The translations under genes were made by a program, and so were the position numbers. Below are positions 21,708-51,724 of a stretch of 64,000 bases of DNA, in pieces. Under the pieces are notes generated by a model. It was not told where the DNA came from. It worked only from the letters and a program-made list of their open reading frames with translations, and did not search any database. Source of the DNA: a candidate division CPR2 bacterium GW2011_GWC2_39_10. Its GTDB lineage: Bacteria; Patescibacteriota; CPR2. The stretch's first letter is position 1. Each line of letters opens with the position of its first letter. The stretch is taken from positions 2,897-66,896 of the forward strand of contig LBVV01000009.1 of assembly GCA_000993275.1 (NCBI GenBank). The letters are read 5' to 3'.

Positions 21708-22118
21708 ATGGTTGAAGAAAAAAAACAAGTCAAAAAACAATACTACTACGGCTTAGGAAGACGAAAAGAAGCTATTTCTAAAGTTAGGCTATATATTGGA
21801 AAAGGTGAATTTACTATAAACGGAAAGAAAATTGAAGAAATATTTAGTGCTTATTTAATTCAAAGACTAATTCAGCCCCTAAAGTTAACCGGAACAGAAA
21901 ATAAATTTGATATTTCTGTTGTTTCCTCAAGCGGAGGCAAAACCGGTCAAGCAGAAGCCACCAGGCTAGGAATTTCCAGAGCTCTAATAGAATTTAATCC
22001 GGAACTCAGGACCACTCTTAAAAAAGCCGGATTCTTAACCAGAGATCCAAGAGAAAAAGAAAGAAAGAAATACGGCCTAAAAAGAGCCAGAAAAGCACCA
22101 CAATTTGCAAAAAGATAA
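21708..22118 (+). CDS. rpsI: 30S ribosomal protein S9
   Basis: Preferred start is ATG 21708 (gaggag 7 nt upstream). YYYGLGRRKEAISKVRL...GGKTGQAEATRLGISRAL...RDPREKERKKYGLKRARKAPQFAKR. Confidence 0.95.
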   Translation: MVEEKKQVKKQYYYGLGRRKEAISKVRLYIGKGEFTINGKKIEEIFSAYLIQRLIQPLKLTGTENKFDISVVSSSGGKTGQAEATRLGISRALIEFNPELRTTLKKAGFLTRDPREKERKKYGLKRARKAPQFAKR

Positions 22119-22124
22119 AAAAAA

Positions 22125-22146
22125 CCACTCGAAAGAGTGGTTTTTT
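22125..22146 (+). terminator. Rho-independent terminator closing the ribosomal supercluster
   Basis: ccactc-gaaa-gagtgg hairpin followed by tttttt, 7 nt after the rpsI stop. Confidence 0.8.
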
Positions 22147-22190
22147 AGTAAACAGTTAATGGCAAGCAGAAACCACCCTCATTTTTGCTT

Positions 22191-22451
22191 TGTCAATCCG
22201 GACATTCCTTTAGAAAATACAATCAAGTGATCCGGAATCCAGAAAGAAAAAAATATCAATCCTGTCCTTTTCTGAAGCAAAAAGTAACTGCTCACAATCC
22301 TGCATTTTATGTTCATATATTATATTAAACTATTTATGTCATACCAAACTTGATTTGGGATCCACTTGTTCAGTTAAATATCGAGCTTTCTGGATTCCGG
22401 ATCAAGTCCGGAATGACAAGAAAGGGGGGGGTGATTGTGAGCAGTTACAGC
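22191..22451. repeat. Composite repeat patch (family B long and short copies plus the gtaactgctcacaatc module in both orientations)
   Basis: 22191-22245 tgtcaatccggacattcc...gatccggaatccagaaag. 22284-22299 gtaactgctcacaatc. 22386-22420 is the reverse complement of gtcattccggacttgatccggaatccagaaag. 22433-22448 gattgtgagcagttac. Confidence 0.85.
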
Positions 22452-22798
22452 AAAAAATATTGATTTTTGGCCATATTTATGATAAAATATAAAATCAATC
22501 AAAATGTAACTTTGCAAAAAAATAAAAAAAGTGGAATGAATTTAGGAGGGGATTCGGATGTAATTGAAATGGTATCTCGTTTTGTTTGCAAGTTTCGTTG
22601 TGTGCGGACTGTTTTATTGGTACATAAGAAAGATCAATAAGGTAAGGGCTTTAGAACTCTGGAGATTACAGATTACAGATTCTATTATGGAAAATGGACT
22701 TTCAACAGTAGAAATGGGGGAACGAGGCGCGTAGGTAGAAATCCAACTTGCTTAAGATGTGTAAATTGTTTATGATAATTTAGTAAATAGGAGCAAGA

Positions 22799-23188
22799 AT
22801 GGGCGATCTCTCAGTTGCAATTTTGATATGTTTAATAATAGTTATTCTGATTTATTCCATACCATATCGTATTGTGGGAGATGTAATTGGTTTTATTCCG
22901 CGACATGCGATATCAAACTATCCAGAAATAGCTAAGAAATATTTCGGCTCAGAAATCGCTAATTTAACCTCTATGATAGCCATCTCTGGTGGAATATTTA
23001 GGTATAAAACTAAAATAAAGCAAATTAAAAGTTTTCTAAATGATACAGACTGTTCTCAGGATCCAAGGCTTGTGAAACTTGTCAAAAGGCTTAATATTTT
23101 TTTAGTGATGCGAAAGATCTATTTTGGATTACTAATTATGTTAACTATTTATTTCTTTATTTTTCTTTATCTAACATCGATGAGATAG
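22799..23188 (+). CDS. Hypothetical membrane protein
   Basis: 129 aa, hydrophobic N- and C-terminal segments, RBS aggag upstream. No family recognised. Confidence 0.45.
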   Translation: MGDLSVAILICLIIVILIYSIPYRIVGDVIGFIPRHAISNYPEIAKKYFGSEIANLTSMIAISGGIFRYKTKIKQIKSFLNDTDCSQDPRLVKLVKRLNIFLVMRKIYFGLLIMLTIYFFIFLYLTSMR

Positions 23189-23239
23189 TTGCAAGAAAAG
23201 GCTATTGGGTCTATTTATTATTTTCATAAAAGATTTTAT

Positions 23240-23455
23240 CTTTTGCCACTTTTTGGAAAGTGGCGTAAAACTTTCGGCTGTCTTCGCCAAAGTGTCGGAA
23301 GTAGCACTCATTCTTTCTCAAAAAAATTGCCGCTCCTCCGGATCGCCCTCACGCCCAGCTAAAGCTGGCCTCCGGTAGGAATTTTTTTGAGATAGTCATT
23401 CGTTTCTTCCTCTCTTTGGCTGCGGAGGCCGATTTAGGACTCGTAAAATCGAAGA
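23240..23455 (+). repeat. Family C intergenic element, divergent copy
   Basis: Begins ttgccactttttggaaagtggcg (hairpin as in the other copies). Contains tctcaaaaaaatt ... aatttttttgaga inverted pair. Confidence 0.55.
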
Positions 23456-23467
23456 TTTTTTGGTAAT

Positions 23468-24028
23468 ATGAAGTCAAAAGGAGCATTGGTGAAAATAAAA
23501 GATAATAGTGACTTGTTTAATGAATGTAAAGACGCCTTTAGGTTAGAAACGTTATCCGTTTACTCAATACCTGAAGAGGAAAAATACCTCCAATTATATT
23601 ATGATGGCAAGCCACTACCACCACAAGAATGTTGTATGACTGAATGGCACACAATGTTAACAAAAGCGAAAGAAAGAGGCGCCTCTTTTAAAAGATTGAG
23701 GTCTTTACCGGAAAGTTTTAATAACTACATAAGAGCCGAAATTGAATGGGGCTACATATATAATGCCGAATTCGGTGAAAATATAAGAATGATTACTCCT
23801 AGTTTGATAAAAGAGAAAGTTAGCAAGGAAAAACTTGTAGATTTTTGGATTTTTGATAATGCTTCAGTTTTACTAATGAATTACGATACGGAAGGTCATT
23901 TCCTTGGCAGCAATCTAGTGGATGACTTCAGGGAAGTTGATAAATATATAAAGATAAAAGAGTTGCTATGGCCGCTAGGCCAGAAGCTGGAAGATTTTTT
24001 AAAAGAATATCGCGCTAAAAAGTATTAA
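23468..24028 (+). CDS. Hypothetical protein, possibly DUF6879-like
   Basis: 186 aa. The pattern AFRLETLSVY...W...GASFKRLRSLP...YIRAEIEWGYIYNAEFGENIRM...DFWIFD resembles that family as I remember it. Unverified. Confidence 0.4.
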   Translation: MKSKGALVKIKDNSDLFNECKDAFRLETLSVYSIPEEEKYLQLYYDGKPLPPQECCMTEWHTMLTKAKERGASFKRLRSLPESFNNYIRAEIEWGYIYNAEFGENIRMITPSLIKEKVSKEKLVDFWIFDNASVLLMNYDTEGHFLGSNLVDDFREVDKYIKIKELLWPLGQKLEDFLKEYRAKKY

Positions 24029-24205
24029 AACTCGACAAATTTGTGGTTTTTTTGCTATAATTAAGCCATGAATTTATATTGTGCAATTTTTTTATAAGTT
24101 CTAGATTCCCGATCGGGTCGGGAATGACGAAGGGAAAGCAGATTCCGGCTTTTATCTAAAGAGGGTAGGCACGTAAAGACTTGTTTATTGCTTATTGCTT
24201 TTTGT

Positions 24206-25126
24206 TTATTTTTTAACTAGTGGTAATGTACAGCATCTAAAGCCTGCTCCGGTTTTGGGGGCTTCGTCAAATTTTACCGGAATAATTTTTATGTTCATAT
24301 CAGTTAAAAGTTTAATTAATCTTGTTGCATTGTGCCGCATAATAATTGTGTTCGGGTCAATTACCAAAACGTTGGAAAATAGGGCGTCTTGTTCTTCCCT
24401 CGAGATATCAATTAACGCGTAATTATCTAAAATCTCTTGAGGAATTTCTTTTAAACCATTTTTATAAATCAGGGCCTTGCCAGCGACAATTGGGCCAAAA
24501 GTACAGTCTAGGTGCAGACATTCTTCGTCGTCTTCCGGTAGTTTCATGAATACGGGAATAACTTTATATTTGGTATCCCTTAAAGCATCTTTCAAAAAAT
24601 TTAAGCCTTCTTCAGTTGATCTTTGACCGATTCCACAAAAAACAAAACCTTTGTCCAAAATTATGTCGCCGCTTTCTAAAATTATCCCTTCGGGAATTCG
24701 AATAATTTTATCTTCAGGAATTAAATCCAAAATATCTTTTAAGGCTTCCCATTCCCGTTTACGGCTTATCTTTTTCATGTTGCAGATAAAAAACAAATCG
24801 CCGATAACAAAGGCAATGTCGCGGGGTGGAAGCTGGTCGCATACGCCGGTAGAACAGGGCAATGGAAGCAAGTGCCGAACGTGAACGCCTAAATCCTTCA
24901 AAACCAATTCTAAACCGTCAAATTCCTTTTTTAAACTTTCGGCCGTAGGTTTATCGTCAGAGAAATAATATTTTTTTTGAGTATTATTAACTATTTCCAA
25001 AGTTTTAGGGTCAGAAAGGAAATTATCCGGATAGCCAATTACCACATCCCTTAAAGTGTCCGTTTCATTCAAGCAATGGGGGATTAAGTTTTCTTTTTTA
25101 TTTTTAGTAATTATTTCTTCTTTCAT
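24206..25126 (-). CDS. Amidinotransferase / DDAH / arginine-deiminase-superfamily enzyme
   Basis: 306 aa. CLHLDCTFGPI and C-terminal GAGFRCCTLPL (catalytic Cys context) are typical of guanidino-group-modifying enzymes. Confidence 0.65.
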   Translation of the reverse strand: MKEEIITKNKKENLIPHCLNETDTLRDVVIGYPDNFLSDPKTLEIVNNTQKKYYFSDDKPTAESLKKEFDGLELVLKDLGVHVRHLLPLPCSTGVCDQLPPRDIAFVIGDLFFICNMKKISRKREWEALKDILDLIPEDKIIRIPEGIILESGDIILDKGFVFCGIGQRSTEEGLNFLKDALRDTKYKVIPVFMKLPEDDEECLHLDCTFGPIVAGKALIYKNGLKEIPQEILDNYALIDISREEQDALFSNVLVIDPNTIIMRHNATRLIKLLTDMNIKIIPVKFDEAPKTGAGFRCCTLPLVKK

Positions 25127-25213
25127 AGGTTCTAGAAGATTTTATCAAGGAAAGGGCTAGGTGTTAAGACGATTTTTCATAAATGCTATTTAGTGGTGTT
25201 TTTCTCACATTTC

Positions 25214-25414
25214 CGTCATTCCGGACATTCATTTAAAAAGTACAATCATTTGATCCGGAATCCATTCTTTTTTAAAGTACTTTCTTTTCCACTTTTGGCA
25301 GCAAAAGTGGAGCAAAACTGCCGACACGCTACAAAATCGGATTAGCACATAAGGCTCATTCACTCTCAAAAAGTCGAACTCGTCGTGCATCTCGATTTTT
25401 CCGCTACAGTCGGA
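25214..25414 (+). repeat. Family B long hairpin (25214-25267) followed by family C element copy (25287-25414)
   Basis: 25287-25384 is identical, by my reading, to 31450-31547 (ttccacttttggcagcaaaagtggagcaaaactgccgacacgctacaaaatcggattagcacataaggctcattcactctcaaaaagtcgaactcgtc). Both end in ...tttttccgctacagtcgga. Confidence 0.9.
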
Positions 25415-25484
25415 CAAAAGAAGGGAAATTTGATTTAAAGGCAAAAATTATTTTTTTAATCAATTCTTTGCTATAATAACATTA

Positions 25485-25811
25485 ATGAAAAAGCGGCGGA
25501 TAAAATTTATCTTAAAAGCAACGGATTTTGTTTTGCTAACATTTATTCTTTTTCCGATGGCTTTTTATATTAATCGAATTTATGGTTGCGATGCTTGTCA
25601 TTTAAATTTCATTCAGAACCTCTTAAAATCTATTGCCCAATACTTAATCAAGGTTCAGGTTTTAGTGTTTGCGCCGGCCTTAGTCGTTTTTTTTATCCCG
25701 TTTTCCATTGTCATGGAATGGGCAAGCGGCAGTCCCAGGGAATGGAAGCTGACTGCATATATCGCTTGCATCATTAGTCTTATGGCTCTAATGTATTTTG
25801 TGTTTACATAA
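25485..25811 (+). CDS. Hypothetical membrane protein
   Basis: 108 aa with three hydrophobic segments. No family recognised. Confidence 0.4.
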   Translation: MKKRRIKFILKATDFVLLTFILFPMAFYINRIYGCDACHLNFIQNLLKSIAQYLIKVQVLVFAPALVVFFIPFSIVMEWASGSPREWKLTAYIACIISLMALMYFVFT

Positions 25812-25869
25812 AATACAATTGGCACTTATGAAGCGACCATGGTAAAATAGTTTTTAGTTAAGGAGGGAT

Positions 25870-26265
25870 ATGGGTTATATCGACAAAATTGCTTCTTCAT
25901 TTGCAAACTACCTGGTTGCGGTTTGGCAGCAGATTAGTTGGATTTTTACTACGGATACAATTAAAATGAAGCCGCTGTTATTTTTGGATATTATTTTAGT
26001 GGCCTTTGTTTTCTATTGGATTTACATTTTTCTTAAAAAAACCACAGCTTCACGATTCCTACCCGGGTTCCTCGCATTTTCTGTTTTTGCCGGCCTTGGT
26101 TATCTTTTTGATTTAAATGCCGTTGCTTGGTTATTTTCTAAAATGTTTTTAGTCATAATTGTGGCAATTCCCATAATATTTCAACCGGAAATTAGGGAAG
26201 CATTAAGTTTGATGTCAAAGAAAAAATCTTTGGTTAACGCTCCGATTAATAAGGAAGATAGATGA
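25870..26265 (+). CDS. CdaA (diadenylate cyclase) N-terminal membrane domain only; DAC domain absent
   Basis: FLDIILVAFVFYWIYIFLKKTTASRFLPG...WLFSKMFLVIIVAIPIIFQPEIREAL parallels the three-TM N-terminus of CdaA up to the FQPELRRALEQLG hinge. The ORF stops 24 aa later. ATGA overlap with the cdaR-like gene. Confidence 0.7.
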   Translation: MGYIDKIASSFANYLVAVWQQISWIFTTDTIKMKPLLFLDIILVAFVFYWIYIFLKKTTASRFLPGFLAFSVFAGLGYLFDLNAVAWLFSKMFLVIIVAIPIIFQPEIREALSLMSKKKSLVNAPINKEDR

Positions 26266-27482
26266 AGTACATAACCAATAATTTTTTTGTTAAATTTTTA
26301 TGTTTGGTGCTTGCCTTTGTTTTTTGGGTTTTTGTGATGGCAGCTGACACCAGAATGGGTTATTTCCCCAAAGAAATCGAGGTAAAAGTTAGAAATATTG
26401 CTAACGGTCTTGCGGTAGTGGAGGATACTGTTCCAATAAAAATTAAAGTAAAAGCTCCCTTAACCGTATATAATAAATTAAATGATAAAAGTTTTGAGGC
26501 TTACGTGGACGCTTCCAGTATAAAAGAAGCCGGGGCCGAAAATTTAGATATTAAAATTGATTCAAAGGAAGCGGGTGTTCAGGTAGTAGGGTCGGACCCT
26601 AAATCCTTCCTATTAAAATTGGAAGATGAAGAAACTAAAAAAATGGCTATAACCCTAAGCCATAAGGGAAAACCGTCTGATGATTATAAAGTTGGAACCG
26701 GGGAAATTTCGACAAAAGACGTTATAGTGACCGGTTCCCCTACAAAATTAAAAAAAATAGCAGATGTTGTGGCGTTGATAGAGTTAAAGGGTAATGAAAA
26801 AGGAAATATTGATGCCGACATGCCGGTAGTCGCTTTAGACGAAGATAACAATACCATTAATTATCTGGTTTTTGATCCGGAAATTGTGGGTGTTAAGATG
26901 GCCATTATTCCAAAGGTGGTGTCTAAATCCGTTGGTATAAAAGTGAACTTAACAGGTGAGGCGGCTAAAGGCTACTGGGTAAGCAAGATAAAAACCGATC
27001 CGGAGATTGTGGCCGTTAAAGGAGAGCTTGAAAAAATAAAAAATATGGAATATGTGGAAACTGAAAAAATTGATTTGGTGGGGAATTCGCAAACTATGAT
27101 TGCTCGTGCTAAGTTTCAGTTGCCGGAAGGTGTAAAAGTGGCAGATAATATAGACAAAGTTAATGTCCAAATTTTTATTTCTAAAATTGATGCTACCAAA
27201 ACCATATCGCCCGCGGTAAACTTTAAAAGGGGAAATCCGAAATATAAAGCGGAGACCTTAAATATGCCGGCCGTTACCTTGTCCGGTTCGCAAGCCGCCC
27301 TAAATGCCGCTACTTCTGAAAATGTTGTTTTGAATATAGATTTGTCAAGTTACGGACCGGGCGAGCAAAAAATTCAAATTAAAAAAGAAATGGTGACAGT
27401 TTCTGGTGAAGTTGAAGTGACTAAAGTTTTACCGGAGTTTATAACAATAAAAATAACGGAGATAGCAACACCAACCCCATGA
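26262..27482 (+). CDS. cdaR: YbbR-domain protein (CdaR-like)
   Basis: 406 aa. N-terminal anchor FFVKFLCLVLAFVFWVFV followed by four repeated ~85-aa YbbR-like modules. Canonical position after cdaA. Confidence 0.75.
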   Translation: MKYITNNFFVKFLCLVLAFVFWVFVMAADTRMGYFPKEIEVKVRNIANGLAVVEDTVPIKIKVKAPLTVYNKLNDKSFEAYVDASSIKEAGAENLDIKIDSKEAGVQVVGSDPKSFLLKLEDEETKKMAITLSHKGKPSDDYKVGTGEISTKDVIVTGSPTKLKKIADVVALIELKGNEKGNIDADMPVVALDEDNNTINYLVFDPEIVGVKMAIIPKVVSKSVGIKVNLTGEAAKGYWVSKIKTDPEIVAVKGELEKIKNMEYVETEKIDLVGNSQTMIARAKFQLPEGVKVADNIDKVNVQIFISKIDATKTISPAVNFKRGNPKYKAETLNMPAVTLSGSQAALNAATSENVVLNIDLSSYGPGEQKIQIKKEMVTVSGEVEVTKVLPEFITIKITEIATPTP

Positions 27483-28501
27483 AATTAGAAGATAGACATA
27501 ATTTAAAACTTATCATTATCCTATTCCTGGCGCTGCTATTGGGTGGTACTATTGGTTTTGTTGCTTTTACGGACGAAGACATACTAACCGCTTTCTACAG
27601 GACTATCATTTTAATGCTGACTCACTTTGACCATGAAATTCCGGAGACTTGGGGAGTAAGGCTTCTTGTCTTGGGTCTAATTTTTGGAAGTCTTATCATT
27701 ATGGCATATTTAATAAAGATATTTGCTCAGTATATTTTTGAAGGAACGCTGAGTGATAATATAAGGAGGCGAAGAATGAAAAAAGAAATAGATGCTATGA
27801 AAGACCATTTTATAGTTTGCGGTTTTGGGCGTGTCGGACAACAGATCGTTCAGGAGCTTATAAATGAAGATGTCAATTTTGTCGTTTTAGATCGTGACGA
27901 AAAAGCATTTCATGATAGAATATCAAAGAAGATTAAATTTTTGCCTAAAGATCCAACATTCGAGGATAATTTGCGTGATGCGGGTATTTACAGGGCCAAG
28001 TCTTTAATTGCGGGTTTGGGTGAAGATACGGATAATTTGCTTCTAACATTGGCGGCCAGATCCCTAAATCCCAACCTTTATATCGTTTCCAGATGTAGTT
28101 TTGAGGAAAATGCGGCAAAATTAGAAAAGGCAGGAGCGGACAGAGTTGCAATGCCGTATCAAATTGGCGGATATCATATGGCCACTATGGCCTTGAGGCC
28201 GGCAGTTGTTGATTTTTTAGATGTCATTATAGACAGCAAGCATCACGAATTGCAAATAGAAGAAGTTTGTGTTGAAGAAGATTCGCCGCTAATTGGCAAG
28301 CCATTAACGGAATATTTATCCAGAAAAAGAACGGGTGCCACAATTTTGGCAATTAACCGTTATGATGGAACATCTGTTATTAATCCGGCGGGAGACGAAA
28401 TAATTTATAGTAAAGACAAACTAATAATTATGGGCACAAAGAAGCAGTTGGAAAATTTGGCCAGTTCAATCTTTAGCGAGGAGAGTATTATTGTTAAGTA
28501 A
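27479..28501 (+). CDS. Two-TM pore + RCK (TrkA-N/TrkA-C) channel-like protein with non-canonical filter
   Basis: 340 aa. M1, pore helix and M2, then Rossmann HFIVCGFGRVGQQIVQEL and a TrkA-C-like end. The TVGYGD position reads LTHFDH. Confidence 0.75.
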   Translation: MKLEDRHNLKLIIILFLALLLGGTIGFVAFTDEDILTAFYRTIILMLTHFDHEIPETWGVRLLVLGLIFGSLIIMAYLIKIFAQYIFEGTLSDNIRRRRMKKEIDAMKDHFIVCGFGRVGQQIVQELINEDVNFVVLDRDEKAFHDRISKKIKFLPKDPTFEDNLRDAGIYRAKSLIAGLGEDTDNLLLTLAARSLNPNLYIVSRCSFEENAAKLEKAGADRVAMPYQIGGYHMATMALRPAVVDFLDVIIDSKHHELQIEEVCVEEDSPLIGKPLTEYLSRKRTGATILAINRYDGTSVINPAGDEIIYSKDKLIIMGTKKQLENLASSIFSEESIIVK

Positions 28502-28844
28502 AGAATTTACAGAAGAGCAAAAAGAGATTTTGAAAAAAAAGCTTAAAGATATCGAGGCAGAACTGGAAGAAAGAGCAGTTAAGTCGCCGGATAATATTTT
28601 TTGGAAGGCAAAATTTGATGATTTTGGCATAGAGGACGACGATGAGGTCTTAGAAGACGAAGTTTTCGATGTCAAAGTTGCCCAAATAAAAAATTTGTTA
28701 GAAGATAAGGCGCAAATTGAGTTAGCGTTGGAAAAGTTTTATAACGGAAGTTACGGTATTTGTGCGAATTGCCGTCAAGAAATTGATGTAGAAAGATTAA
28801 AGGCTTTCCCTGAAGCAACATTTTGTATAAAATGTGATTCATGA
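28491..28844 (+). CDS. DksA/TraR-family C4 zinc-finger protein
   Basis: Coiled-coil N-terminus, then C-terminal CANCRQEI...ATFCIKCDS. Confidence 0.8.
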   Translation: MLSKEFTEEQKEILKKKLKDIEAELEERAVKSPDNIFWKAKFDDFGIEDDDEVLEDEVFDVKVAQIKNLLEDKAQIELALEKFYNGSYGICANCRQEIDVERLKAFPEATFCIKCDS

Positions 28845-29770
28845 AAAAGGATTATAAAATTGATAATGAGGGATCCGGCAAAAGACTGGATGTTTTTTTA
28901 GTTTCCAGGGAGACTAATTATTCCAGGTCTTTTGTCCAGAAATTAATAATTGGGGGTAGGGTGCTAATTAATAATGTTTCCGGAAAAGCGAATATGATAT
29001 TAAAAGTGGGAGACTCCGTTTCATTTACAGCTCCGGAAGCAAAAAAAGAAGAAAAATTAAAGCCGTCTAACGATATAGAGATCCCTATAATTTTTGAGAA
29101 TGAAGAATTTTTAGCAATAAACAAACCGGCCGGGCTTGTTGTTCATCCGGCATTTGGTCACCCGGATGATACCTTAGTAAATATTCTTGTATCAATGCGT
29201 CCGGATTTAATGCGTCTGGATAATTTACGTCCGGGAATTATTCATCGGCTGGATAAAGATACTTCCGGCATAATGCTGGTTGCAAAAACCCAGGAAGCGG
29301 TAACTTTTTTATCCAAGGAAATTGAAAATAGAAAAGTAAAGAAACATTATTTGGCTTTGGTTTTTGGCAAGGTCGATCCTAAAAGGGGAGAGATTAATGT
29401 TCCCCTTAAAAGATCTTCGGTTAATAGAAAAAAAGTTGATGTTTCCGCGGCGGGTAAAACAGCAATTACGAATTATGAAGTGGCGGAGGAACTGGGCAAC
29501 GCGACATTAATAAATGCTTTTCCGGTAACCGGCAGAACGCATCAAATTAGAGTTCATTTTTCGTATATTGGTCATCCAATAATTGGCGATGAAACATATT
29601 CGTCAGGGTTACAACTTCTGGAGGCGAAAAAGTTGGGGGTTACCAGGCAAATGCTTCATGCTTATCGCTTGGGTTTTAAAGACCCCAAAACTAAAAAATG
29701 GCTGGAACTAGAGGCTCCGGTTCCTCAAGATTTTCAAAAGTTACTTCAGAAAACAAGGATGGAAAAATGA
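28841..29770 (+). CDS. rluD: RluA-family 23S rRNA pseudouridine synthase (RluD-like)
   Basis: S4 domain (GKRLDVFLV...), catalytic HRLDKDTSGIMLVAK, and GRTHQIRVHF. Confidence 0.9.
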   Translation: MKKDYKIDNEGSGKRLDVFLVSRETNYSRSFVQKLIIGGRVLINNVSGKANMILKVGDSVSFTAPEAKKEEKLKPSNDIEIPIIFENEEFLAINKPAGLVVHPAFGHPDDTLVNILVSMRPDLMRLDNLRPGIIHRLDKDTSGIMLVAKTQEAVTFLSKEIENRKVKKHYLALVFGKVDPKRGEINVPLKRSSVNRKKVDVSAAGKTAITNYEVAEELGNATLINAFPVTGRTHQIRVHFSYIGHPIIGDETYSSGLQLLEAKKLGVTRQMLHAYRLGFKDPKTKKWLELEAPVPQDFQKLLQKTRMEK

Positions 29771-30684
29771 TCGGCGACATTATCCAATTGGAGAAGGCGA
29801 GAATGGCCTATAAAAATGGCACCCTAAAACAGTCATATTTAATTACCGGTCCGTGGGATATCGGAAAAAAAGATTTTGCCATAGCGTTTTCGGCAATGAT
29901 TTTTTGCGAAACTAAAGACAATTGCGGTAAATGTAAGGGCTGCAAAAAAACCAATTCTTTTTCTAATCCCGACTTCTATGTTTTAGATGAGGAAGGGCAA
30001 ATAAAAATTGATTCGATAAGAGAGCTAAATAAAAAATTAAATTTAAAGCCCTATGAGTTTGAAAGTAAGGTAGCTTTAATAATTGGGGCAGAGAGAATGA
30101 CAATTGAAGCGGCAAATAGTTTACTAAAGATATTAGAAGAACCGCCGGAAGATTCTGTTATTATTCTTACATCCGCCGTACCCGGTCAATTGCTAGAAAC
30201 CATTAAGTCCAGATGTCAGGATATCAAGTTAAAAAATATGCCTAAAAAAATGATTGTTGAAGAATTAATTAAAAACCATGGCTTGAAAAGCGATGAGGCC
30301 TTAAGAATTGCCAATATCGCTTTAGGAAGGCCAAAATTAGCGGAGAAATTGGTCGTAAATGATGATTATGGTGAAGAGGTTGAATTTTTAAGAGAAATTG
30401 CAAAAAAAAATTTGTGCGATAGGTTCAAATTGGCGTCAGATTTTGCCGAAAAAAAGAATGTGTTAAGGTTAATCGGTTATTGGGAGACTTTTTTTATGGA
30501 TCTTTTAAAAGCAAAAATGGATGGCAGGGATGACCTGTCAACAACAAAACATAAGGTTAAAGATTTCTCTTGGGACATCTGGGCAATCGTAAACATACTT
30601 GACATTTTAGAGAAAATGAGGGAATATATCCAGAGTAAAATCAAAAATAAACTAATTCTAGAGAACATATTCTTAAATATATGA
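29767..30684 (+). CDS. holB: DNA polymerase III delta' subunit
   Basis: Preferred start is ATG 29767 (ATGA overlap with rluD). CGKCKGCKK zinc module and LLKILEEPPEDSVIILTS sensor region. Confidence 0.8.
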   Translation: MIGDIIQLEKARMAYKNGTLKQSYLITGPWDIGKKDFAIAFSAMIFCETKDNCGKCKGCKKTNSFSNPDFYVLDEEGQIKIDSIRELNKKLNLKPYEFESKVALIIGAERMTIEAANSLLKILEEPPEDSVIILTSAVPGQLLETIKSRCQDIKLKNMPKKMIVEELIKNHGLKSDEALRIANIALGRPKLAEKLVVNDDYGEEVEFLREIAKKNLCDRFKLASDFAEKKNVLRLIGYWETFFMDLLKAKMDGRDDLSTTKHKVKDFSWDIWAIVNILDILEKMREYIQSKIKNKLILENIFLNI

Positions 30685-31367
30685 AGCTTGCCGGAATCCA
30701 ATTTCAATACTCTCTTAAAATTTATGATTTCGATCAGAACGACCTGGAAATTTCATTGGGTGATTTTGTTTTGGTAGAAACTATTCAGGGTCAGGAAATA
30801 GGAAGGGTGGTTTACTTAAATAAAAAGAAAAAAACGAGTGATGAAGATGCCAGGCCGATACTCCGAAAAGCAACTTTGGAAGACCGGGAAAAAATGAAAG
30901 AGTTAAAAGAGGAAGCTGCCACTTATTTGCCGGATTTCGAAAAACAAGTCAAGAGTTTTGGGCTTAAAATGAGACCGCTTGCCGCTGATATTTCTGTTGA
31001 TGAAAAGAGATTGACTTTTTATTTTATGGCAGAAAGCAGGATTGATTTTAGGGATATGGTAAGAGAATTGGCCAGGGAATATAAAAAGCAAATAAGACTC
31101 TTACAGGTTGGTGCCAGAGACGGAGCCCGAATTGTGGGCGGTTATGGCAGGTGCGGTTTAGTAGTCTGCTGTCAGAGATTCCTTACGGACTTAGAAAGCA
31201 TCACCATGGATATGGCGAGGAATCAGAATTTGGCGGCTAAATCAGGTTCTAAAATTTCCGGAATTTGCGGCAAACTAATGTGCTGTCTTGCATACGAAAC
31301 TGATGATAAAAATAAGATTGAGAAAGAGATGGAAAAAGAAATTGATGCTGCTCAAAGCCGAGACTAA
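30681..31367 (+). CDS. PSP1 domain protein (RicT/YaaT-like)
   Basis: PSP1 C-terminal domain with Cys cluster GRCGLVVCCQRF...CGKLMCCLAYE. Follows holB as in many Firmicutes. Confidence 0.85.
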   Translation: MKLAGIQFQYSLKIYDFDQNDLEISLGDFVLVETIQGQEIGRVVYLNKKKKTSDEDARPILRKATLEDREKMKELKEEAATYLPDFEKQVKSFGLKMRPLAADISVDEKRLTFYFMAESRIDFRDMVRELAREYKKQIRLLQVGARDGARIVGGYGRCGLVVCCQRFLTDLESITMDMARNQNLAAKSGSKISGICGKLMCCLAYETDDKNKIEKEMEKEIDAAQSRD

Positions 31368-31403
31368 ATAATTGTGCATCTAATTTCAGAATGGGTTTAA
31401 GTA

Positions 31404-31593
31404 TGTCATTCCGGACTTGATCCGGAATCTATTATTTCTTTATTTCTATTTCCACTTTTGGCAGCAAAAGTGGAGCAAAACTGCCGACACGCTACAAAAT
31501 CGGATTAGCACATAAGGCTCATTCACTCTCAAAAAGTCGAACTCGTCATCTTCTCTTCGCCAAGTGCATCTCGATTTTTCCGCTACAGTCGGA
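31404..31593 (+). repeat. Family B short hairpin (31404-31432) followed by family C element copy (31450-31593)
   Basis: gtcattccggacttgatccggaatc, then the same ~98-nt core as 25287-25384 with a 16-nt insertion (atcttctcttcgccaa) before gtgcatctcgatttttccgctacagtcgga. Confidence 0.9.
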
Positions 31594-31643
31594 GAAGAAT
31601 TATAGATATTGATATCGCAAATAGTATGGACTATTATTAATTT

Positions 31644-31880
31644 ATGTTTGGTGCATGTTTTGTAACTGATTACGGATATTATATGCTTGCCGGATTTATT
31701 ATTGCAGGTTTATTATCCGGGTACATTTCATTTTTATTAATTAGAAAACTAATCAAGACAAAGAAAGACTCTTTACTGATACCAATAATATTATTAGGAA
31801 TAGTTTTTCTTATTTCGGCCATTTTTATTTTGAATTTTAAACAACTTGCATGGATGTCGACATGTATTGCCTCAGTTTAA
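31644..31880 (+). CDS. Hypothetical small membrane protein
   Basis: 78 aa with two hydrophobic helices. No family recognised. Confidence 0.35.
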   Translation: MFGACFVTDYGYYMLAGFIIAGLLSGYISFLLIRKLIKTKKDSLLIPIILLGIVFLISAIFILNFKQLAWMSTCIASV

Positions 31881-31902
31881 TACAAATAATAATAACAAAT
31901 AA

Positions 31903-31931
31903 TTGACTATAAGGCATAATTTAGATATAAT
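31903..31931 (+). promoter_or_regulatory. Sigma70-type promoter upstream of the tRNA cluster
   Basis: ttgact (31903-31908), 17-nt spacer, tataat (31926-31931). Confidence 0.55.
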
Positions 31932-32019
31932 AGTACAGAATTTCGGCCTCTTTTTTTGTTTTTAAAAATGTGTCAATTGAGTTTTAATGGTAGGGGGCTG
32001 GTTGCATGGATAAAAAAAT

Positions 32020-32073
32020 GCCGATGTAGCGTTAGTGGCAGAGTCCGGCAACTGACGGATAAACAGTAGGTTG
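32020..32073 (+). pseudogene. Partial 5' duplicate of tRNA-Thr(UGU); no T arm and no 3' acceptor strand
   Basis: aaaaatgccgatgtagc...ggcagag...aaacagtaggttg matches the first two thirds of the tRNA at 32106, including 5 flanking nt. It then diverges and no catcggc follows. Confidence 0.7.
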
Positions 32074-32105
32074 ACCGTAAGGCTAGGTAAGTGAGCAGGA
32101 AAAAT

Positions 32106-32177
32106 GCCGATGTAGCTCAATGGCAGAGCAACTGTTTTGTAAACAGTAGGTTGTGGGTTCGAATCCCTCCATCGGCT
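32106..32177 (+). tRNA. tRNA-Thr (anticodon UGU), CCA encoded at 32178-32180
   Basis: Hand fold: acceptor gccgatg/catcggc, D arm gctc-aatggca-gagc, anticodon stem actgt/acagt with loop ttTGTaa, T arm gtggg-ttcgaat-ccctc (one U-U mismatch). Confidence 0.88.
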
Positions 32178-32265
32178 CCATAAAAGTTATCAGGAATCAG
32201 TAACCAGGAAACATTAATAGGGATAGAAGATTGTTTACTGATTACTGTTTCCTGATTCCTGACAC

Positions 32266-32348
32266 GGGCAGGTACCCAAGTGGCCAACGGGGGCAGACTG
32301 TAAATCTGCTGGCATTCGCCTTCGAAGGTTCGAATCCTTCCCTGCCCA
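32266..32348 (+). tRNA. tRNA-Tyr (anticodon GUA), long variable arm, CCA encoded
   Basis: Acceptor gggcagg/cctgccc, anticodon stem gcaga/tctgc with loop ctGTAaa, variable arm tggcattcgccttc, T arm gaagg-ttcgaat-ccttc. Confidence 0.93.
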
Positions 32349-32444
32349 CCAATAACAATAAACAATTAACAAGGAACAAAAAACAAAAGCACAGTTTTAC
32401 GGATAAAATGTTTTTTGTTGATTGCACTTTGTTTTTTGGCTCGG

Positions 32445-32517
32445 GCCCAGATAGCTCAGTTGGCAGAGCGCATCCATGGTAAGGATGAGGTCACGGGTTC
32501 GAATCCCGTTCTGGGCT
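32445..32517 (+). tRNA. tRNA-Thr (anticodon GGU), CCA encoded
   Basis: Acceptor gcccaga/tctgggc, D arm gctc-agttggca-gagc, anticodon stem catcc/ggatg with loop atGGTaa, T arm acggg-ttcgaat-cccgt. Confidence 0.93.
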
Positions 32518-32617
32518 CCAGATAACTTGCTAAGTTTTCAAACAATGTTACCTCAATAATTTGCCCTAGTAACTTGCAAACTTACCAATTAATAAACTAG
32601 AATAAAAGGAGAAATAA

Positions 32618-32782
32618 ATGGCAAAGAAAGAAAATCGGCCGGTAATTGCACTTGCTTGCGGTGAATGTAAAAACAGGAACTATTCAACTACAAAAAATAA
32701 GAAGAATACGACTGACAGGATAGAATTAAGCAAATTTTGTCCTTTTTGCCGAAAAACCACAGCTCACAAAGAAACGAAATAA
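32618..32782 (+). CDS. rpmG: 50S ribosomal protein L33 (not in the ORF track, 54 aa)
   Basis: Hand translation: [54 protein letters not shown]. Two CxxC pairs. RBS aaaggag 7 nt upstream. Possible promoter ttgcaa(32574)/tagaat(32598). Confidence 0.93.
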
Positions 32783-32870
32783 AACTTTATATAGTTCGAT
32801 ATTTGACAAGTAAATGTTGATATTTTAGAATGGTTATGGGTGTAAATATAACTGTTGATTATTATTCAAA

Positions 32871-33533
32871 ATGAAAACTAATCTTAAATCAAAAGCCATA
32901 TCTTTGCGTAAGCAAGGCTTCTCTTTGAAAGAAATAAGTGAAGATTTAGGTATAGCAAAAAGTACGGCATCCTTGTGGTTAAGGGATACTGTTTTAAGCG
33001 CAAATGCTATAAAAAGGATTGAAAGTAGAATAACTAAAGGACAAATAAAAGCGGCTGAAATAAAGAGAGAAAAAACAAGAAAATTGTTAAATGAATTTCA
33101 AGCAAAAAGCGATGTGTTAGTTGGGCGAACTATATTAAATATTGATATGATAAAGATAATATGTTCATTGATTTATTGGTGTGAGGGGGGTAAATATAGC
33201 GATAATTTCGTACAATTTACCAATTCAGATCCCAGTCTTATGGGTACATTTCTGCAATTACTTAGGCAGGTATTTATGGTAGATGAAAAAAAATTTAGGG
33301 TTTGTATGCATCTTCATGACTATCATAATGAAAAAAAGCAAAGACAATTTTGGTCTATGGTAACAGAAGTTCCCGAGAGCCAGTTTATAAAGTCATACAA
33401 TAAGCCAAATACGGGAAAGAGAATTAGAAAAGGTTATCAAGGATGTGTGCAGTTGAGGTATTATGATGCGGTAGTATCGAGAGAATTATTAGCAATAGCT
33501 AAATCTTTCATGAATAAACTTGAAAACAAATAA
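32871..33533 (+). CDS. HTH protein with LAGLIDADG-like homing-endonuclease-like C-terminal domain (tentative)
   Basis: N-terminal HTH LRKQGFSLKEISEDLGIAKSTASLWLRD. Then LIYWCEGGKYSDNFVQFTNSDPSLMGTFLQLL, resembling the single LAGLIDADG-type motif (hydrophobic-YW-x-EG-x-K). Own promoter ttgaca(32803)/tagaat(32826). The stop abuts tRNA-Trp. Confidence 0.45.
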   Translation: MKTNLKSKAISLRKQGFSLKEISEDLGIAKSTASLWLRDTVLSANAIKRIESRITKGQIKAAEIKREKTRKLLNEFQAKSDVLVGRTILNIDMIKIICSLIYWCEGGKYSDNFVQFTNSDPSLMGTFLQLLRQVFMVDEKKFRVCMHLHDYHNEKKQRQFWSMVTEVPESQFIKSYNKPNTGKRIRKGYQGCVQLRYYDAVVSRELLAIAKSFMNKLENK

Positions 33534-33606
33534 AGGGGCGTTCGTTAATTGGATAAACGGCTACTCTCCAAAAGTAGTCCTGCCGGTTCGAGTCCGGCCG
33601 CCCCTG
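33534..33606 (+). tRNA. tRNA-Trp (anticodon CCA), CCA end encoded
   Basis: Acceptor aggggcg/cgcccct, D arm cgtt-aattggata-aacg, anticodon stem ctact/agtag with loop ctCCAaa, T arm gccgg-ttcgagt-ccggc. Starts the nucleotide after the preceding stop codon. Confidence 0.92.
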
Positions 33607-34041
33607 CCAAAAGAATAAATTCACGATTAGCCGATAGCTTATGGCTAGTTATATAAAGAGAAGAAATAAATTTACTGATTGCCAATGACTTGTGGTCATA
33701 AATAAGAAAGCCAAAGAAAGATTTTTAGCTTCGCGCTTGACTAAACTGGACTTACGCAAAATGGCACATCTATCCAAGCCGAAAACAAGTGAGATAAAAT
33801 CTCTTTTCTCTACTGGAAGCGTATTTGTAGATACGCTGACAGGAGAAAAAGGGATTTTAGCCACTTGGGGTGGTTTGGGAGGTGTGGTAGGTTTGCGTAA
33901 GTTCAGTAAAGCCATTTTAGAGTTATTATTTATACCAAGGGGAATAAATATTATGATAAGAATAATTAAAAAATTGGTCGGAGAAAAGCTTAAGGAATAT
34001 TTTTTTGTGTAATAACATTTAATTATTGCCTAATGCATTTT

Positions 34042-51518: not shown

Positions 51519-51724
51519 TTCTACTTTTTGGCAGCAAAAAGATAGCAAAAACTGCCGACAAAGCTACAAAATTGGGTTAGGACTGAGTCTTGTTCACTCT
51601 CAAAAAGTCGAACTCGTCGTAACCTCCTCAAACACAACTTTTTGAGATGTTCCCTGCGACATCCGACCTCAGCTTCGCCGAAGGCGAGACGGGAGTCCAC
51701 CACAATTTTTACGCTACAGTCGGA
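51519..51724 (+). repeat. Family C intergenic element, long copy
   Basis: ttctactttttggcagcaaaaagatagcaaaaactgccgacaaagctacaaaattgg...ttcactctcaaaaagtcgaactcgtc, then a ~90-nt insertion, then tttttacgctacagtcgga. Same ends as the copies at 25287 and 31450. Confidence 0.85.

What the first reader, a model, noticed from the sequence alone, without database searches (positions are those of the whole stretch)
25287..25414. Family C: a 130-210-nt intergenic element in four copies with conserved ends and a variable internal insert
SEEN: the copies lie at 25287-25414, 31450-31593, 51519-51724 and (divergent) 23240-23455.
- The first two share a ~98-nt core that I read as identical (ttccacttttggcagcaaaagtggag...cactctcaaaaagtcgaactcgtc).
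- All of them end ...ttttt(c/a)cgctacagtcgga.
- Between core and end they carry 0, 16 or ~90 extra nt.
- Each starts with a hairpin (cacttttgg-cagc-aaaagtgg). The long copies add ctcaaaaag...ctttttgag pairing.
- Two copies are immediately preceded by a family B hairpin.
- No copy has a credible ORF; the ORF-track hits 25229-25444 (minus strand) and 51521-51703 (minus strand) are translations of the repeat.
INFERENCE: this is a structured small RNA family or a MITE with a modular insert. I do not recognise it as a known RNA class.
Basis: seen in the sequence. Interest (0 to 1): 0.5.

Follow-up and report, generated by a model that had tools for sequence, protein, structure and literature searches.

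The report
Structured mobile-like intergenic repeat family
A non-coding element of about 172 bases, which folds into a small hairpin plus a long imperfect hairpin, is scattered between unrelated genes of an uncultivated groundwater bacterium and a few relatives; it behaves like a small selfish repeat of the ERIC/REP/MITE kind, not like any catalogued RNA gene.

Summary
The four copies are real and are the only ones in the window, all on the + strand. They belong to one family with at least three subtypes. All share a 5' hairpin, an AAAACU spacer and a long irregular hairpin. The pairing is kept through many double changes (22 of 44 pairs; 0 of 500 shuffles). There is no Rfam match, no ORF, no promoter, no terminal inverted repeats and no target duplication.

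The "modular insert" is not a module. Other assemblies of the same two loci carry identical full-length 172-nt copies. The window versions lack 44 and 28 internal nt, and copy 3 carries a nested 32-nt hairpin.

Copies sit at non-orthologous sites in the sister species. One is missing from the orthologous site of a Howlettbacteria relative. Some are chimeric or decayed. Between species, same-subtype copies are 96-97% identical, against 64% at four-fold sites of neighbouring genes. They usually lie just downstream of "family B", which fits the published CGTC-tagged REP class.

Best reading: a new family of structured, non-autonomous, horizontally spreading intergenic repeats. The mobilising enzyme is unknown. 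An RNA-level role is not excluded.

The parts
25287..25414 (+). Copy 1, subtype 1a. In this window it lacks 44 internal nt (the 3' arm of inner helix P6 and part of the 3' strand of the long hairpin).
   Evidence: cmsearch R1 gives 123 bits. Seven of the eight other assemblies carry the full-length sequence identical to full copy 2, and L094 has a 174-nt variant.
31450..31593 (+). Copy 2, subtype 1a. In this window it lacks 28 internal nt (GTAACCTCCTCAAACACAACTTTTTGAG).
   Evidence: cmsearch R1 gives 142 bits. L038 has 99.96-100% identical flanks but a 172-nt copy.
51519..51724 (+). Copy 3, subtype 1b. It is the only structurally complete copy in the window and carries a nested 32-nt insertion.
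   Evidence: cmsearch R1 gives 180 bits. It is 96.4-96.5% identical to subtype-1b copies of the sister species.
51521..51545 (+). P1, the 5' hairpin of copy 3 (CTACTTTTTG GCAG CAAAAAGATAG).
   Evidence: Folds. Six of 10 pairs show double changes across the family.
51555..51723 (+). Long irregular hairpin of copy 3, from the closing helix CCGAC (51555-51559) to GTCGG (51719-51723).
   Evidence: RNAfold and RNAalifold. Helices 2-4 hold 13 pairs with double changes.
51599..51646 (+). Inner helix P6 of copy 3: CTCAAAAAG (51599-51607) pairs with CTTTTTGAG (51638-51646), enclosing a ~30-nt apical region.
51662..51693 (+). Nested 32-nt insertion with its own small hairpin (GCTTCGCC GAA GGCGAG). It is absent from all other copies and unique in the window.
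   Evidence: Alignment A3.
23245..23433 (+). Copy 4, subtype 2. It has the same architecture: P1 GCCACTTT/AAAGTGGC, spacer GTAAAACTT, and a long hairpin TCGGC...GCCGA. An AT-rich leader hairpin lies at 23228-23244 and a tail runs to about 23455.
   Evidence: R1 gives 44 bits, E 1.6e-9. R2 gives 223 bits. Fold -73 kcal/mol, z -4.2.
25214..25264 (+). Family B hairpin upstream of copy 1: a CGTC-tagged REP-like element (CGTC ATTCCGGA ... TCCGGAAT CCA) with an enlarged loop.
   Evidence: The features match the published definition in PMC3733652.
31404..31431 (+). Family B hairpin upstream of copy 2 (TGTC ATTCCGGA CTTGA TCCGGAAT CTA). It looks like a terminator.
   Evidence: A stretch of 29 nt is 96.6% identical to a Sphingopyxis plasmid sequence.

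Best explanation
Family C is a family of small, non-coding, structured intergenic repeats. Each is about 172 nt: a 5' AT-rich hairpin, an AAAACU spacer and a roughly 135-nt imperfect hairpin. The family behaves as a non-autonomous selfish element.

Proposed behaviour:
- It multiplies or is exchanged between intergenic regions. It usually lands just downstream of CGTC-type REP hairpins (family B), between the end of one transcription unit and the promoter of the next.
- It moves between lineages.
- Individual copies then decay through internal deletions, nested insertions and broken helices.

What is shown:
- The element is repeated, and the three subtypes are homologous.
- The fold is conserved through compensatory change.
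- Sites are not orthologous, and one orthologous site is empty.
- Sequence divergence is far below the neutral level.

What is inferred:
- One strand (the + strand as given) is recognised in folded form by an enzyme acting in trans.
- Because there are no terminal inverted repeats and no target duplication, that enzyme is more likely an HUH/Y1-type (IS200/IS605 or RAYT-like) or another site- or structure-specific recombinase than a DDE transposase.
- Homologous recombination between the shared B/leader and tail sequences also shuffles subtypes.
- When read through, the hairpin may additionally affect mRNA ends, as REP, ERIC and Correia elements do.
For: One family, four copies here:
- R1, built from subtype 1, finds subtypes 2 and 3. 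R2, built only from subtypes 2 and 3, finds subtype 1 in return at E 7.6e-7 to 3e-4.

Structure conserved:
- 95% of cells are paired, and 22 of 44 pairs have changes on both sides. No shuffle of 500 reaches this, and slid controls give at most 7.
- Fold z-scores are -4.2 to -4.6 as RNA and -5.2 as DNA.

Selfish or mobile behaviour:
- Flanking genes are unrelated housekeeping genes.
- The syntenic sister species (L035, 86.7% nt) has a subtype-2 element at the copy-1 site, followed by a short tail resembling the 3' end of copy 1. It has no element at the copy-2 site, and it has an extra copy where the window has none.
- A syntenic relative of the Howlettbacteria host (Dxs 84% identical) has a 98-nt spacer with no element. 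No copy was found in 48 kb from three relatives.
- Copies cluster by subtype, not by species. Between species they are 96.4-97.0% identical, against 63.6% identity at 674 four-fold sites of adjacent orthologous genes.
- The full copies 1 and 2 are identical.
- There are nested insertions and chimeras, and copies with broken helices such as L004 and L094.

Not a gene:
- No promoter-like site lies in or just upstream of any copy, and there is no ORF.

Association with REP:
- A B hairpin lies 20-46 nt upstream in 8 of about 12 loci, including the Howlettbacteria one.
Against: - No transposase or recombinase was found among about 40 neighbouring genes, and no autonomous parent element was seen.
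- There is no clean filled-versus-empty pair with exact junctions, so the termini are not defined.
- No presence/absence polymorphism was seen within either species across many samples.
- There are no terminal inverted repeats and no target duplication.
- The two end hairpins do not resemble each other, unlike IS200/IS605 ends.
- The very low divergence over the whole length, loops included, could instead reflect strong purifying selection on a functional RNA.
- G-U pairs outnumber A-C (22 to 4) on the + strand. Orientation follows the local gene strand in 10 of 13 copies. Both would also fit an RNA.
Confidence: 0.55

Rival explanations
1. Family C is primarily a functional structured RNA. It would be either a cis-acting element carried on read-through transcripts (stabilising 3' ends, serving as a processing site, or insulating adjacent units) or a trans-acting small RNA. 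Its sequence would be held by purifying selection. Its dispersal would be secondary.
For: - Compensatory changes occur in all main helices.
- Wobble pairs favour the + strand, 22 G-U against 4 A-C.
- Single-sided changes such as CUC to CUU, or GAG to GGG in P6, give G-U on the + strand.
- Between species the element is 96-97% identical, against 64% at neutral sites.
- Unpaired motifs are conserved across subtypes: CAUUC before P6 and GAGAU...UCG after it.
- All four window copies are co-oriented with the genes.
Against: - No promoter-like site was detected.
- Most copies lie downstream of a terminator-like REP hairpin.
- Neighbours are unrelated and sites are not orthologous.
- Some copies have broken helices or large internal deletions.
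- The strand-energy test does not favour the + strand: the minus strand folds 5-15 kcal/mol better in subtype 1.
- The orientation bias is weak, 5:2 in informative tandem contexts.
- Loops are as conserved as stems, which suggests recent origin rather than selection on structure.
- There is no Rfam family.
Confidence: 0.25
2. Family C is a recombinase-less derivative of an IS110/IS1111-type element, or a hitch-hiking small-RNA module like ssr9 of ISPpu9. It would carry a bridge/seek-RNA-like structured RNA and insert next to REP sequences by RNA-guided recombination supplied in trans.
For: - The size is about 175 nt, with a 5' stem-loop plus a hairpin containing large internal loops.
- It is regularly adjacent to REP hairpins, which are known IS110-family targets.
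- There are no terminal inverted repeats and no target duplication.
- There is a precedent for solo sRNA modules mobilised by an IS110 transposase into REPs (PMC12288879).
- In two copies (window copy 2 and L037), a 7-nt stretch of the pyrimidine-rich internal loop is complementary to the 3' flank and differs in step with it (read).
Against: - Flanks are not conserved among near-identical copies, whereas IS110-type targeting predicts one specific target.
- The distance to the B hairpin varies from 20 to 46 nt.
- Complementarity between loop and flank is absent in the other seven subtype-1 copies.
- No DEDD recombinase was found in the sampled neighbourhoods.
- There is no Rfam hit.
Confidence: 0.08
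3. The resemblance is an assembly artefact or a chance similarity of AT-rich intergenic DNA.
For: The window assembly does contain small deletions inside these repeats and elsewhere.
Against: - The same elements are assembled independently in many samples, by different assemblers, and in three organisms.
- The motifs occur 3 times against 0.00-0.04 expected by chance.
Confidence: 0.02

Closest known systems
ERIC (enterobacterial repetitive intergenic consensus) and similar large palindromic intergenic repeats such as Correia/NEMIS, RUP, BOX and RPE. The comparison rests on my own knowledge of these families; PMC3733652 lists them among bacterial MITEs.
   Same: - It is a non-coding imperfect palindrome of 100-200 nt, located between genes.
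- Size variants arise from internal deletions and insertions.
- Locations differ between related species while the sequence stays highly conserved.
- It has strong RNA/DNA hairpin potential.
- There is no known dedicated transposase (as for ERIC).
   Different: - No sequence similarity to any of them was found.
- It has an extra 5' hairpin and spacer outside the long hairpin, so the element as a whole is not a palindrome.
- There are no terminal inverted repeats and no TA or other target duplication, unlike Correia or RUP.
- The hosts are uncultivated groundwater bacteria. One is labelled Candidatus Howlettbacteria; the phylum of the window organism was not established.
REP / BIME mosaics and REPIN-RAYT systems (PMC3733652, PMC3116915)
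   Same: - It is dispersed between genes and has several coexisting subfamilies that differ by compensatory stem changes.
- It persists with little sequence change.
- It is physically associated with genuine REP-like hairpins (family B), giving a mosaic like a BIME.
   Different: - C is 172 nt, not a hairpin of 20-40 nt.
- It is not two inverted REPs.
- It has no conserved GTAG or CGTC tag at a hairpin foot shared by all subtypes.
- No RAYT gene was seen.
IS200/IS605-derived palindrome-associated elements (PATEs) and their single-strand 'peel and paste' transposition
   Same: - There are no terminal inverted repeats and no target duplication.
- It has a subterminal hairpin and a strand-specific fold.
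- All window copies lie on the strand that would be the lagging-strand template if genes follow replication.
- The 5' flank is T-rich.
   Different: - The left and right end hairpins are unrelated in sequence.
- No fixed 4-5-nt target sits 5' of the element.
- No tnpA or tnpB was seen.
- Three of 13 copies lie against the local gene strand.
ssr9 module of ISPpu9 (IS110 family) in Pseudomonas putida (PMC12288879)
   Same: - A small structured-RNA-sized module occurs as solo copies.
- It is associated with REP sequences and is thought to be a selfish passenger of a recombinase acting in trans.
   Different: - ssr9 has its own promoter and defined A'/B' end boxes shared with the IS.
- C has no detectable promoter, no identified partner IS and non-conserved flanks.

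Membership tests
Any Rfam RNA family | A covariance-model match at or near the family's gathering score | tested here: not met
   No hit over any copy at gathering score on the whole window. At E up to 10 on 23000-25700 nothing overlaps either copy; on the full-length L038 copy the only overlapping matches have E 1.4-5.1 and score far below their gathering scores.
Classical MITE | Terminal inverted repeats of 15-30 bp at the two ends | tested here: not met
   The inverted repeats found are internal (P1, P6). The ends TTCCAC... and ...GTCGGA are not complementary.
Classical MITE | Target-site duplication flanking each copy | tested here: not met
   No direct repeat is shared by the flanks of the nine subtype-1 copies.
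Classical MITE | Small, non-coding and multi-copy, at different sites in related genomes | tested here: met
Classical MITE | A related autonomous IS with the same ends | not testable with these tools
   The whole genomes could not be scanned. None was found among about 40 neighbouring genes.
REP (GTAG- or CGTC-tagged), applied to family C | A single hairpin of 20-40 bp with a terminal GTAG or CGTC tag | tested here: not met
   C is 172 nt with several helices. CGCTAC (GTAGCG on the other strand) occurs twice in subtype 1 but not at the same positions in subtypes 2 and 3.
CGTC-tagged REP, applied to family B (the neighbour) | A CGTC/TGTC tag, a stem of 8-9 bp starting with A-T pairs, a loop of 4-5 nt and a short CCA-like tail (PMC3733652) | tested here: met
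   (C/T)GTC ATTCCGGA CTTGA TCCGGAAT C(C/T)A. The definition was read. A stretch of 29 nt is 96.6% identical to a Sphingopyxis plasmid sequence.
REPIN | Two REPs in inverted orientation forming one hairpin, plus a cognate RAYT gene | tested here: not met
   The two arms of the long hairpin are not REP units. The RAYT part could not be tested.
IS200/IS605-type PATE | Similar subterminal hairpins at both ends and a fixed 4-5-nt target 5' of the left end | tested here: not met
   P1 has no counterpart at the 3' end. The 5' flanks are only pyrimidine-rich (TCTTT, CTATT, CTCTT, CCTTT...).
IS200/IS605-type PATE | Orientation bias linked to the replication strand | tested here: inconclusive
   4 of 4 copies in the window, and 10 of 13 overall, follow the local majority gene strand. 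The replication direction is unknown.
IS110/IS1111 bridge- or seek-RNA element | One specific target sequence shared by all insertions, complementary to an internal loop | tested here: not met
   Flanks differ among near-identical copies. Loop-to-flank complementarity was seen in 2 of 9 copies only.
IS110/IS1111 bridge- or seek-RNA element | An adjacent DEDD recombinase gene | tested here: not met
   None in the sampled neighbourhoods. A partner acting in trans could not be tested.
Integron attC site | R''/R' boxes RYYYAAC...GTTRRRY, and arrays of single-gene cassettes | tested here: not met
   The closing helix is CCGAC/GTCGG or CGGC/GCCG. Copies flank ordinary operons, not cassettes.
Intrinsic terminator | A G+C-rich stem-loop followed directly by a U tract, conserved in all members | tested here: not met
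   A T5 run follows the P3 strand only in subtype 1 and is absent in subtype 3 and one subtype-2 copy. The scan flags B, not C.

The most novel reading that the evidence does not exclude
Family C is a horizontally mobile structured RNA gene. It could be, for example, a guide- or scaffold-type RNA of a not yet recognised RNA-guided recombination system in uncultivated groundwater bacteria, or a new self-processing RNA. Its whole 172-nt sequence would be held by selection, and it would insert next to REP hairpins.
Probability: 0.08. Interest if true: 0.8.

Novelty: new member of a known kind. Interest (0 to 1): 0.35.

Why it matters
Small dispersed palindromic repeats (REP, ERIC, Correia, RPE) are well known in Proteobacteria and Firmicutes. 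In two literature searches I found no description of such elements in Patescibacteria / Candidate Phyla Radiation genomes, which are small and thought to be poor in mobile DNA.

Here an element of about 172 nt, together with CGTC-type REP hairpins, populates the few intergenic spaces of such genomes. It is shared by at least three uncultivated groundwater organisms, one of them labelled Candidatus Howlettbacteria. It is far more conserved than neutral sites. That points to horizontal exchange of non-coding DNA between these organisms, or to a real function.

On the practical side, these identical 172-nt repeats break or corrupt short-read assemblies. Many contigs end inside them, and the window itself carries deletions. 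This matters for MAG curation.

Tried and rejected
- Rfam was searched at gathering and at relaxed thresholds. Nothing was found.
- Pattern scans of genome, metagenome and viral collections found real hits in only three organisms; the rest were chance or unrelated coding matches.
- A protein search with the spurious ORF that spans the repeat, meant to fish out further copies, found nothing.
- I tested whether the pyrimidine-rich 5' flank pairs with the purine-rich 3' flank of the same copy. Matched flanks gave -6.4 kcal/mol and mismatched flanks -5.2 (sd 2.7), which is not significant.
- The strand of the fold could not be settled from folding energies. They are confounded by composition, and the minus strand folds better in subtype 1.
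- A pseudoknot or alternative pairing between the P1 loop GGCAG and the downstream CUGCC is not kept in subtypes 2 and 3, so I dropped it.
- I considered and rejected a small toxin or peptide gene, a DGR template/variable repeat pair, an integron attC site, a group II intron fragment, a retron and an RCR single-strand origin (the 6-mer TAGCGT only).
- No transposase was found among the neighbours.
- BLAST against phage and plasmid collections matched only the family B hairpin.
- No presence/absence polymorphism was found within either species.
- The taxonomy look-up of the host names failed.

Full report
**1. Observation**

- The conserved 22-mer CTCTCAAAAAGTCGAACTCGTC and the 3' motif TTTTTMCGCTACAGTCGGA each occur three times on the + strand. 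Shuffles give 0.00 and 0.04.
- Model R1 was built from eight full-length relatives. Run over every position of the window, it finds exactly four copies, all on the + strand. They are 51520-51724 (180 bits), 31450-31593 (142 bits), 25287-25414 (123 bits) and 23245-23433 (44 bits, E 1.6e-9).
- Model R2 was built only from the divergent subtypes. It finds the same four and nothing else.
- Copies 1 and 2 are identical over the first 98 nt and the last 30 nt.
- The divergent copy 4 does not carry the ...CGCTACAGTCGGA end.

**2. The 'modular insert' is not a module**

The window comes from a Rifle groundwater organism; the contigs carrying its proteins are from the ANAN16 and PRJNA268031 assemblies.
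- Eight other assemblies of the copy-1 locus carry a full-length element. As far as each contig reaches, seven show the same 172-nt sequence as full copy 2; L094 has a 174-nt variant with a different 3' arm.
- L038 covers the copy-2 locus with 99.96-100% identical flanks and also carries a 172-nt copy.
- In the population, therefore, copies 1 and 2 are identical 172-nt elements. The window versions lack 44 and 28 internal nt.
- Copy 3 is a full-length copy of a sister subtype with a nested 32-nt insertion at 51662-51693.
- The window also lacks 47 nt inside a protein gene relative to four other assemblies. These short deletions may be errors of this assembly rather than biology.

**3. Anatomy**

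The full element (L038) has three parts:
- P1, a 9-11-bp AT-rich hairpin (CCACUUUUG GCAG CAAAAGUGG).
- A spacer, AGCAAAACUG.
- A hairpin of about 135 nt. It is closed by CCGAC/GUCGG and followed by an internal loop with CGCUAC on both strands. Next comes a bulged helix, AAAAUCGGAU..GCAC pairing with GUGC.AUC.UCGAUUUU. The inner helix is CUCAAAAAG/CUUUUUGAG, capped by a 30-nt apical region.

Folding energy is -48 kcal/mol as RNA (z -4.6) and -29.6 kcal/mol as DNA (z -5.2). The opposite strand folds equally well or better.

No reading frame is conserved, and the length differences are not multiples of three. No sigma-70-like promoter lies in or just upstream of any copy, on either strand.

**4. 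Relatives and subtypes**

A degenerate pattern scan of 185,579 species genomes hit only two organisms, apart from chance. These are 'bacterium CG2_30_37_16' (five loci) and a Candidatus Howlettbacteria MAG. The metagenome scan added contigs of the same organisms and of the window's own population. The viral scan added nothing.

With the models I recognise the following:
- Subtype 1a: window copies 1 and 2, L008, L004, L037.
- Subtype 1b: window copy 3, L022, L001.
- Subtype 2: window copy 4, L035 3895-4083, L035 about 1081-1293.
- Subtype 3: L049 4578-4771.

The subtypes differ in sequence but keep P1, the AAAACU spacer, the closing helix and P6. P1 reads GCCACUUU/AAAGUGGC, GUUCUUUC/GAAAGAAC or GUCCUUUU/AAAAGGAC in the different subtypes. 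The unpaired motifs CAUUC before P6 and GAGAU...UCG after it are also kept. Recognition is reciprocal between the two models.

On 12 distinct copies:
- 95% of cells are standard pairs.
- 22 of 44 pairs show changes on both sides.
- None of 500 shuffles reaches this, and partners slid by 1-3 columns give at most 7 such pairs.

Caveat: this alignment was fitted to the model. However, the subtype 1a/1b compensations are visible in a plain MAFFT alignment. They are AAAAUCG/CGAUUUU against AAAAUUG/CAAUUUU, GAU/AUC against GGU/ACC, and GCAC/GUGC against GGAC/GUCC.

**5. Genomic behaviour**

*Neighbours.* They are unrelated: DUF6879, a DDAH/ADI-family enzyme, a cdaA-ybbR-trkA operon, PSP1, an fn3 surface protein, alanyl-tRNA synthetase, YceG, Obg, Dxs and others.

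*Sister species.* L035 is syntenic over window 23227-33649. Across eight adjacent gene pairs, identity is 86.7% for nucleotides, 89.2% for amino acids and 63.6% at 674 four-fold sites.
- At the copy-1 site the sister species has a subtype-2 element, followed by a short tail resembling the 3' end of copy 1.
- At the copy-2 site it has no element.
- Downstream of the DDAH-like gene it has an extra minus-strand subtype-1b copy where the window has none.

*Howlettbacteria.* In that MAG the element sits between a 126-aa gene and dxs. A syntenic relative (L109, Dxs 84% identical) has only a 98-nt spacer there, with no element and only a remnant of the B tail. No copy was found in 48 kb from three relatives.

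*Within species.* The copies are fixed in every sample examined.

*Sequence identity.* Copies cluster by subtype rather than by host.
- The same subtype in the two species: 96.4-97.0%.
- Subtypes 1a against 1b within one genome: about 91.5%.
- The Howlettbacteria copy against all others: 86-87%.

The element is thus more than ten times less diverged than neutral sites. That means either recent horizontal exchange or very strong constraint over its whole length.

*Rearranged copies.* Chimeras and nested insertions are common.
- L037 and L049 carry a subtype-2 leader in front of a subtype-1 body.
- L001 and L004 have a 20-nt hairpin inserted in the P1 loop.
- L035 (about 1081) has a 23-nt palindrome inserted in the long hairpin.
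- Some copies have broken helices, for example L004 and the L094 variant.

**6. Orientation and strand**

All four window copies are on the gene-rich + strand. Over 13 distinct copies, 10 follow the local majority gene strand. In the informative tandem-gene contexts the ratio is 5:2, which is suggestive but not significant.

On the fitted alignment, G-U cells outnumber A-C cells 22 to 4 on the + strand. Folding energies do not favour the + strand. I therefore regard the + strand as the more likely folded strand, whether as RNA or as single-stranded DNA, but this is not established.

**7. Association with family B**

A hairpin of the form (C/T)GTC-ATTCCGGA-CTTGA-TCCGGAAT-C(C/T)A lies 20-46 nt upstream of the element in 8 of about 12 loci. 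These include the Howlettbacteria locus.

It matches feature by feature the published definition of CGTC-tagged REPs (PMC3733652):
- a CGTC or TGTC tag;
- a stem of 8-9 bp beginning with A-T pairs;
- a loop of 4-5 nt;
- a CCA-like tail.

One of these hairpins is flagged as terminator-like. Its 29-nt core is 96.6% identical to a sequence on a Sphingopyxis plasmid. Family C therefore sits in a REP-containing mosaic between the end of one transcription unit and the promoter of the next.

**8. Interpretation**

The best-supported reading is a new family of structured, non-autonomous, selfish intergenic repeats. They resemble ERIC-type large palindromic repeats and REP/BIME mosaics in phenomenology, but show no sequence relation to them.

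| Status | Points |
|---|---|
| Shown | Repetition; homology of the subtypes; conserved fold; non-orthologous sites and one empty site; decay of single copies; divergence far below neutral |
| Inferred | Mobilisation in trans of a folded single strand. The lack of terminal inverted repeats and target duplications argues against a DDE transposase. It is compatible with HUH/Y1 enzymes or structure-specific recombinases. Homologous recombination through the shared leader and tail explains the subtype swaps at one site. |

I could not find the enzyme, and I could not define exact termini.

The main rival is a functional RNA, which would be cis-acting on read-through transcripts or a small RNA. It explains the covariation, the wobble bias and the slow evolution. 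It fits poorly with five observations:
- the missing promoter;
- the position after terminator-like REPs;
- the unrelated neighbours;
- the broken copies;
- loops that are conserved as well as stems.

The two readings are not exclusive.

An IS110-type RNA-guided module, of which ssr9 of ISPpu9 is a precedent (PMC12288879), is attractive because of the REP association. It fails the test of a common target sequence.

**9. Verdict**

The 'modular insert' is an artefact of deletions. The element is a new member of a known kind of bacterial repeat, in an unusual host group. It carries one oddity worth following up: its extreme conservation between species.

Noticed in passing
They have a CGTC/TGTC tag, a stem of 8-9 bp starting with AT, a loop of 4-5 nt and a CCA-like tail. 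The inner stems differ by compensatory changes. The core is 96.6% identical over 29 nt to a Sphingopyxis plasmid sequence.
   Followed up: partly
window 51258/51259; 25386/25387; 31547/31548; window 24551-24602 versus L083: The window assembly differs from other assemblies of the same population by short indels. A 47-nt deletion splits a 470-aa fn3 gene into ORFs of 380 and 79 aa. Deletions of 44 and 28 nt lie inside repeat copies 1 and 2. Conversely, contig L083 lacks 52 nt of the DDAH-like gene. These are probably local assembly errors or minority alleles.
   Followed up: partly
window 25287-25414 and 31450-31593: In the population these two copies are identical 172-nt direct repeats, each preceded by a B hairpin. 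They bracket the 6-kb operon 25485-31367 (cdaA-like, ybbR, trkA, dksA-type zinc finger, PSP1 and others). Many short-read contigs end inside them.
   Followed up: partly
window 25468-25487 (TGCTATAAT, then 8 nt, then ATG); also 31644, 32871 and 1671; L035 1320-1335; L019 upstream of dxs: Some genes have an extended -10 box only 6-9 nt before the start codon and no Shine-Dalgarno sequence. This suggests leaderless mRNAs. About 7 of 70 genes in the window look like this, while 39 have a Shine-Dalgarno-like motif.
   Followed up: partly
window 51662-51693; L001 P1 loop (CCCTAAATACTCAGGGTAAACTT); L035 about 1117-1139 (CCCAATACGGATCCGTATGGACT): Three different copies of family C carry different small hairpin-forming insertions of 20-32 nt at different internal positions. 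It is as if tiny palindromes insert into, or arise within, the element.
   Followed up: no
L091 950-1010 and the 3' flank of the L001 copy: Two unrelated loci of the sister species share a segment of about 70 nt directly after the element (GCCAYCATRTYGRYGGCAAGATRAAGGCCACCG...). It may be a further repeat family or a longer variant of family C.
   Followed up: no
window 22118-22799: This is an unusually long (681-nt) intergenic region. It has two B hairpins in opposite orientation (22192 +, 22406 -) and a strong bidirectional-looking terminator at 22119-22146.
   Followed up: no
L049 4353-4546 (+) and 4578-4771 (-): A subtype-1 and a subtype-3 copy lie tail to tail, 31 nt apart, in the sister species, between two + strand genes.
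   Followed up: partly
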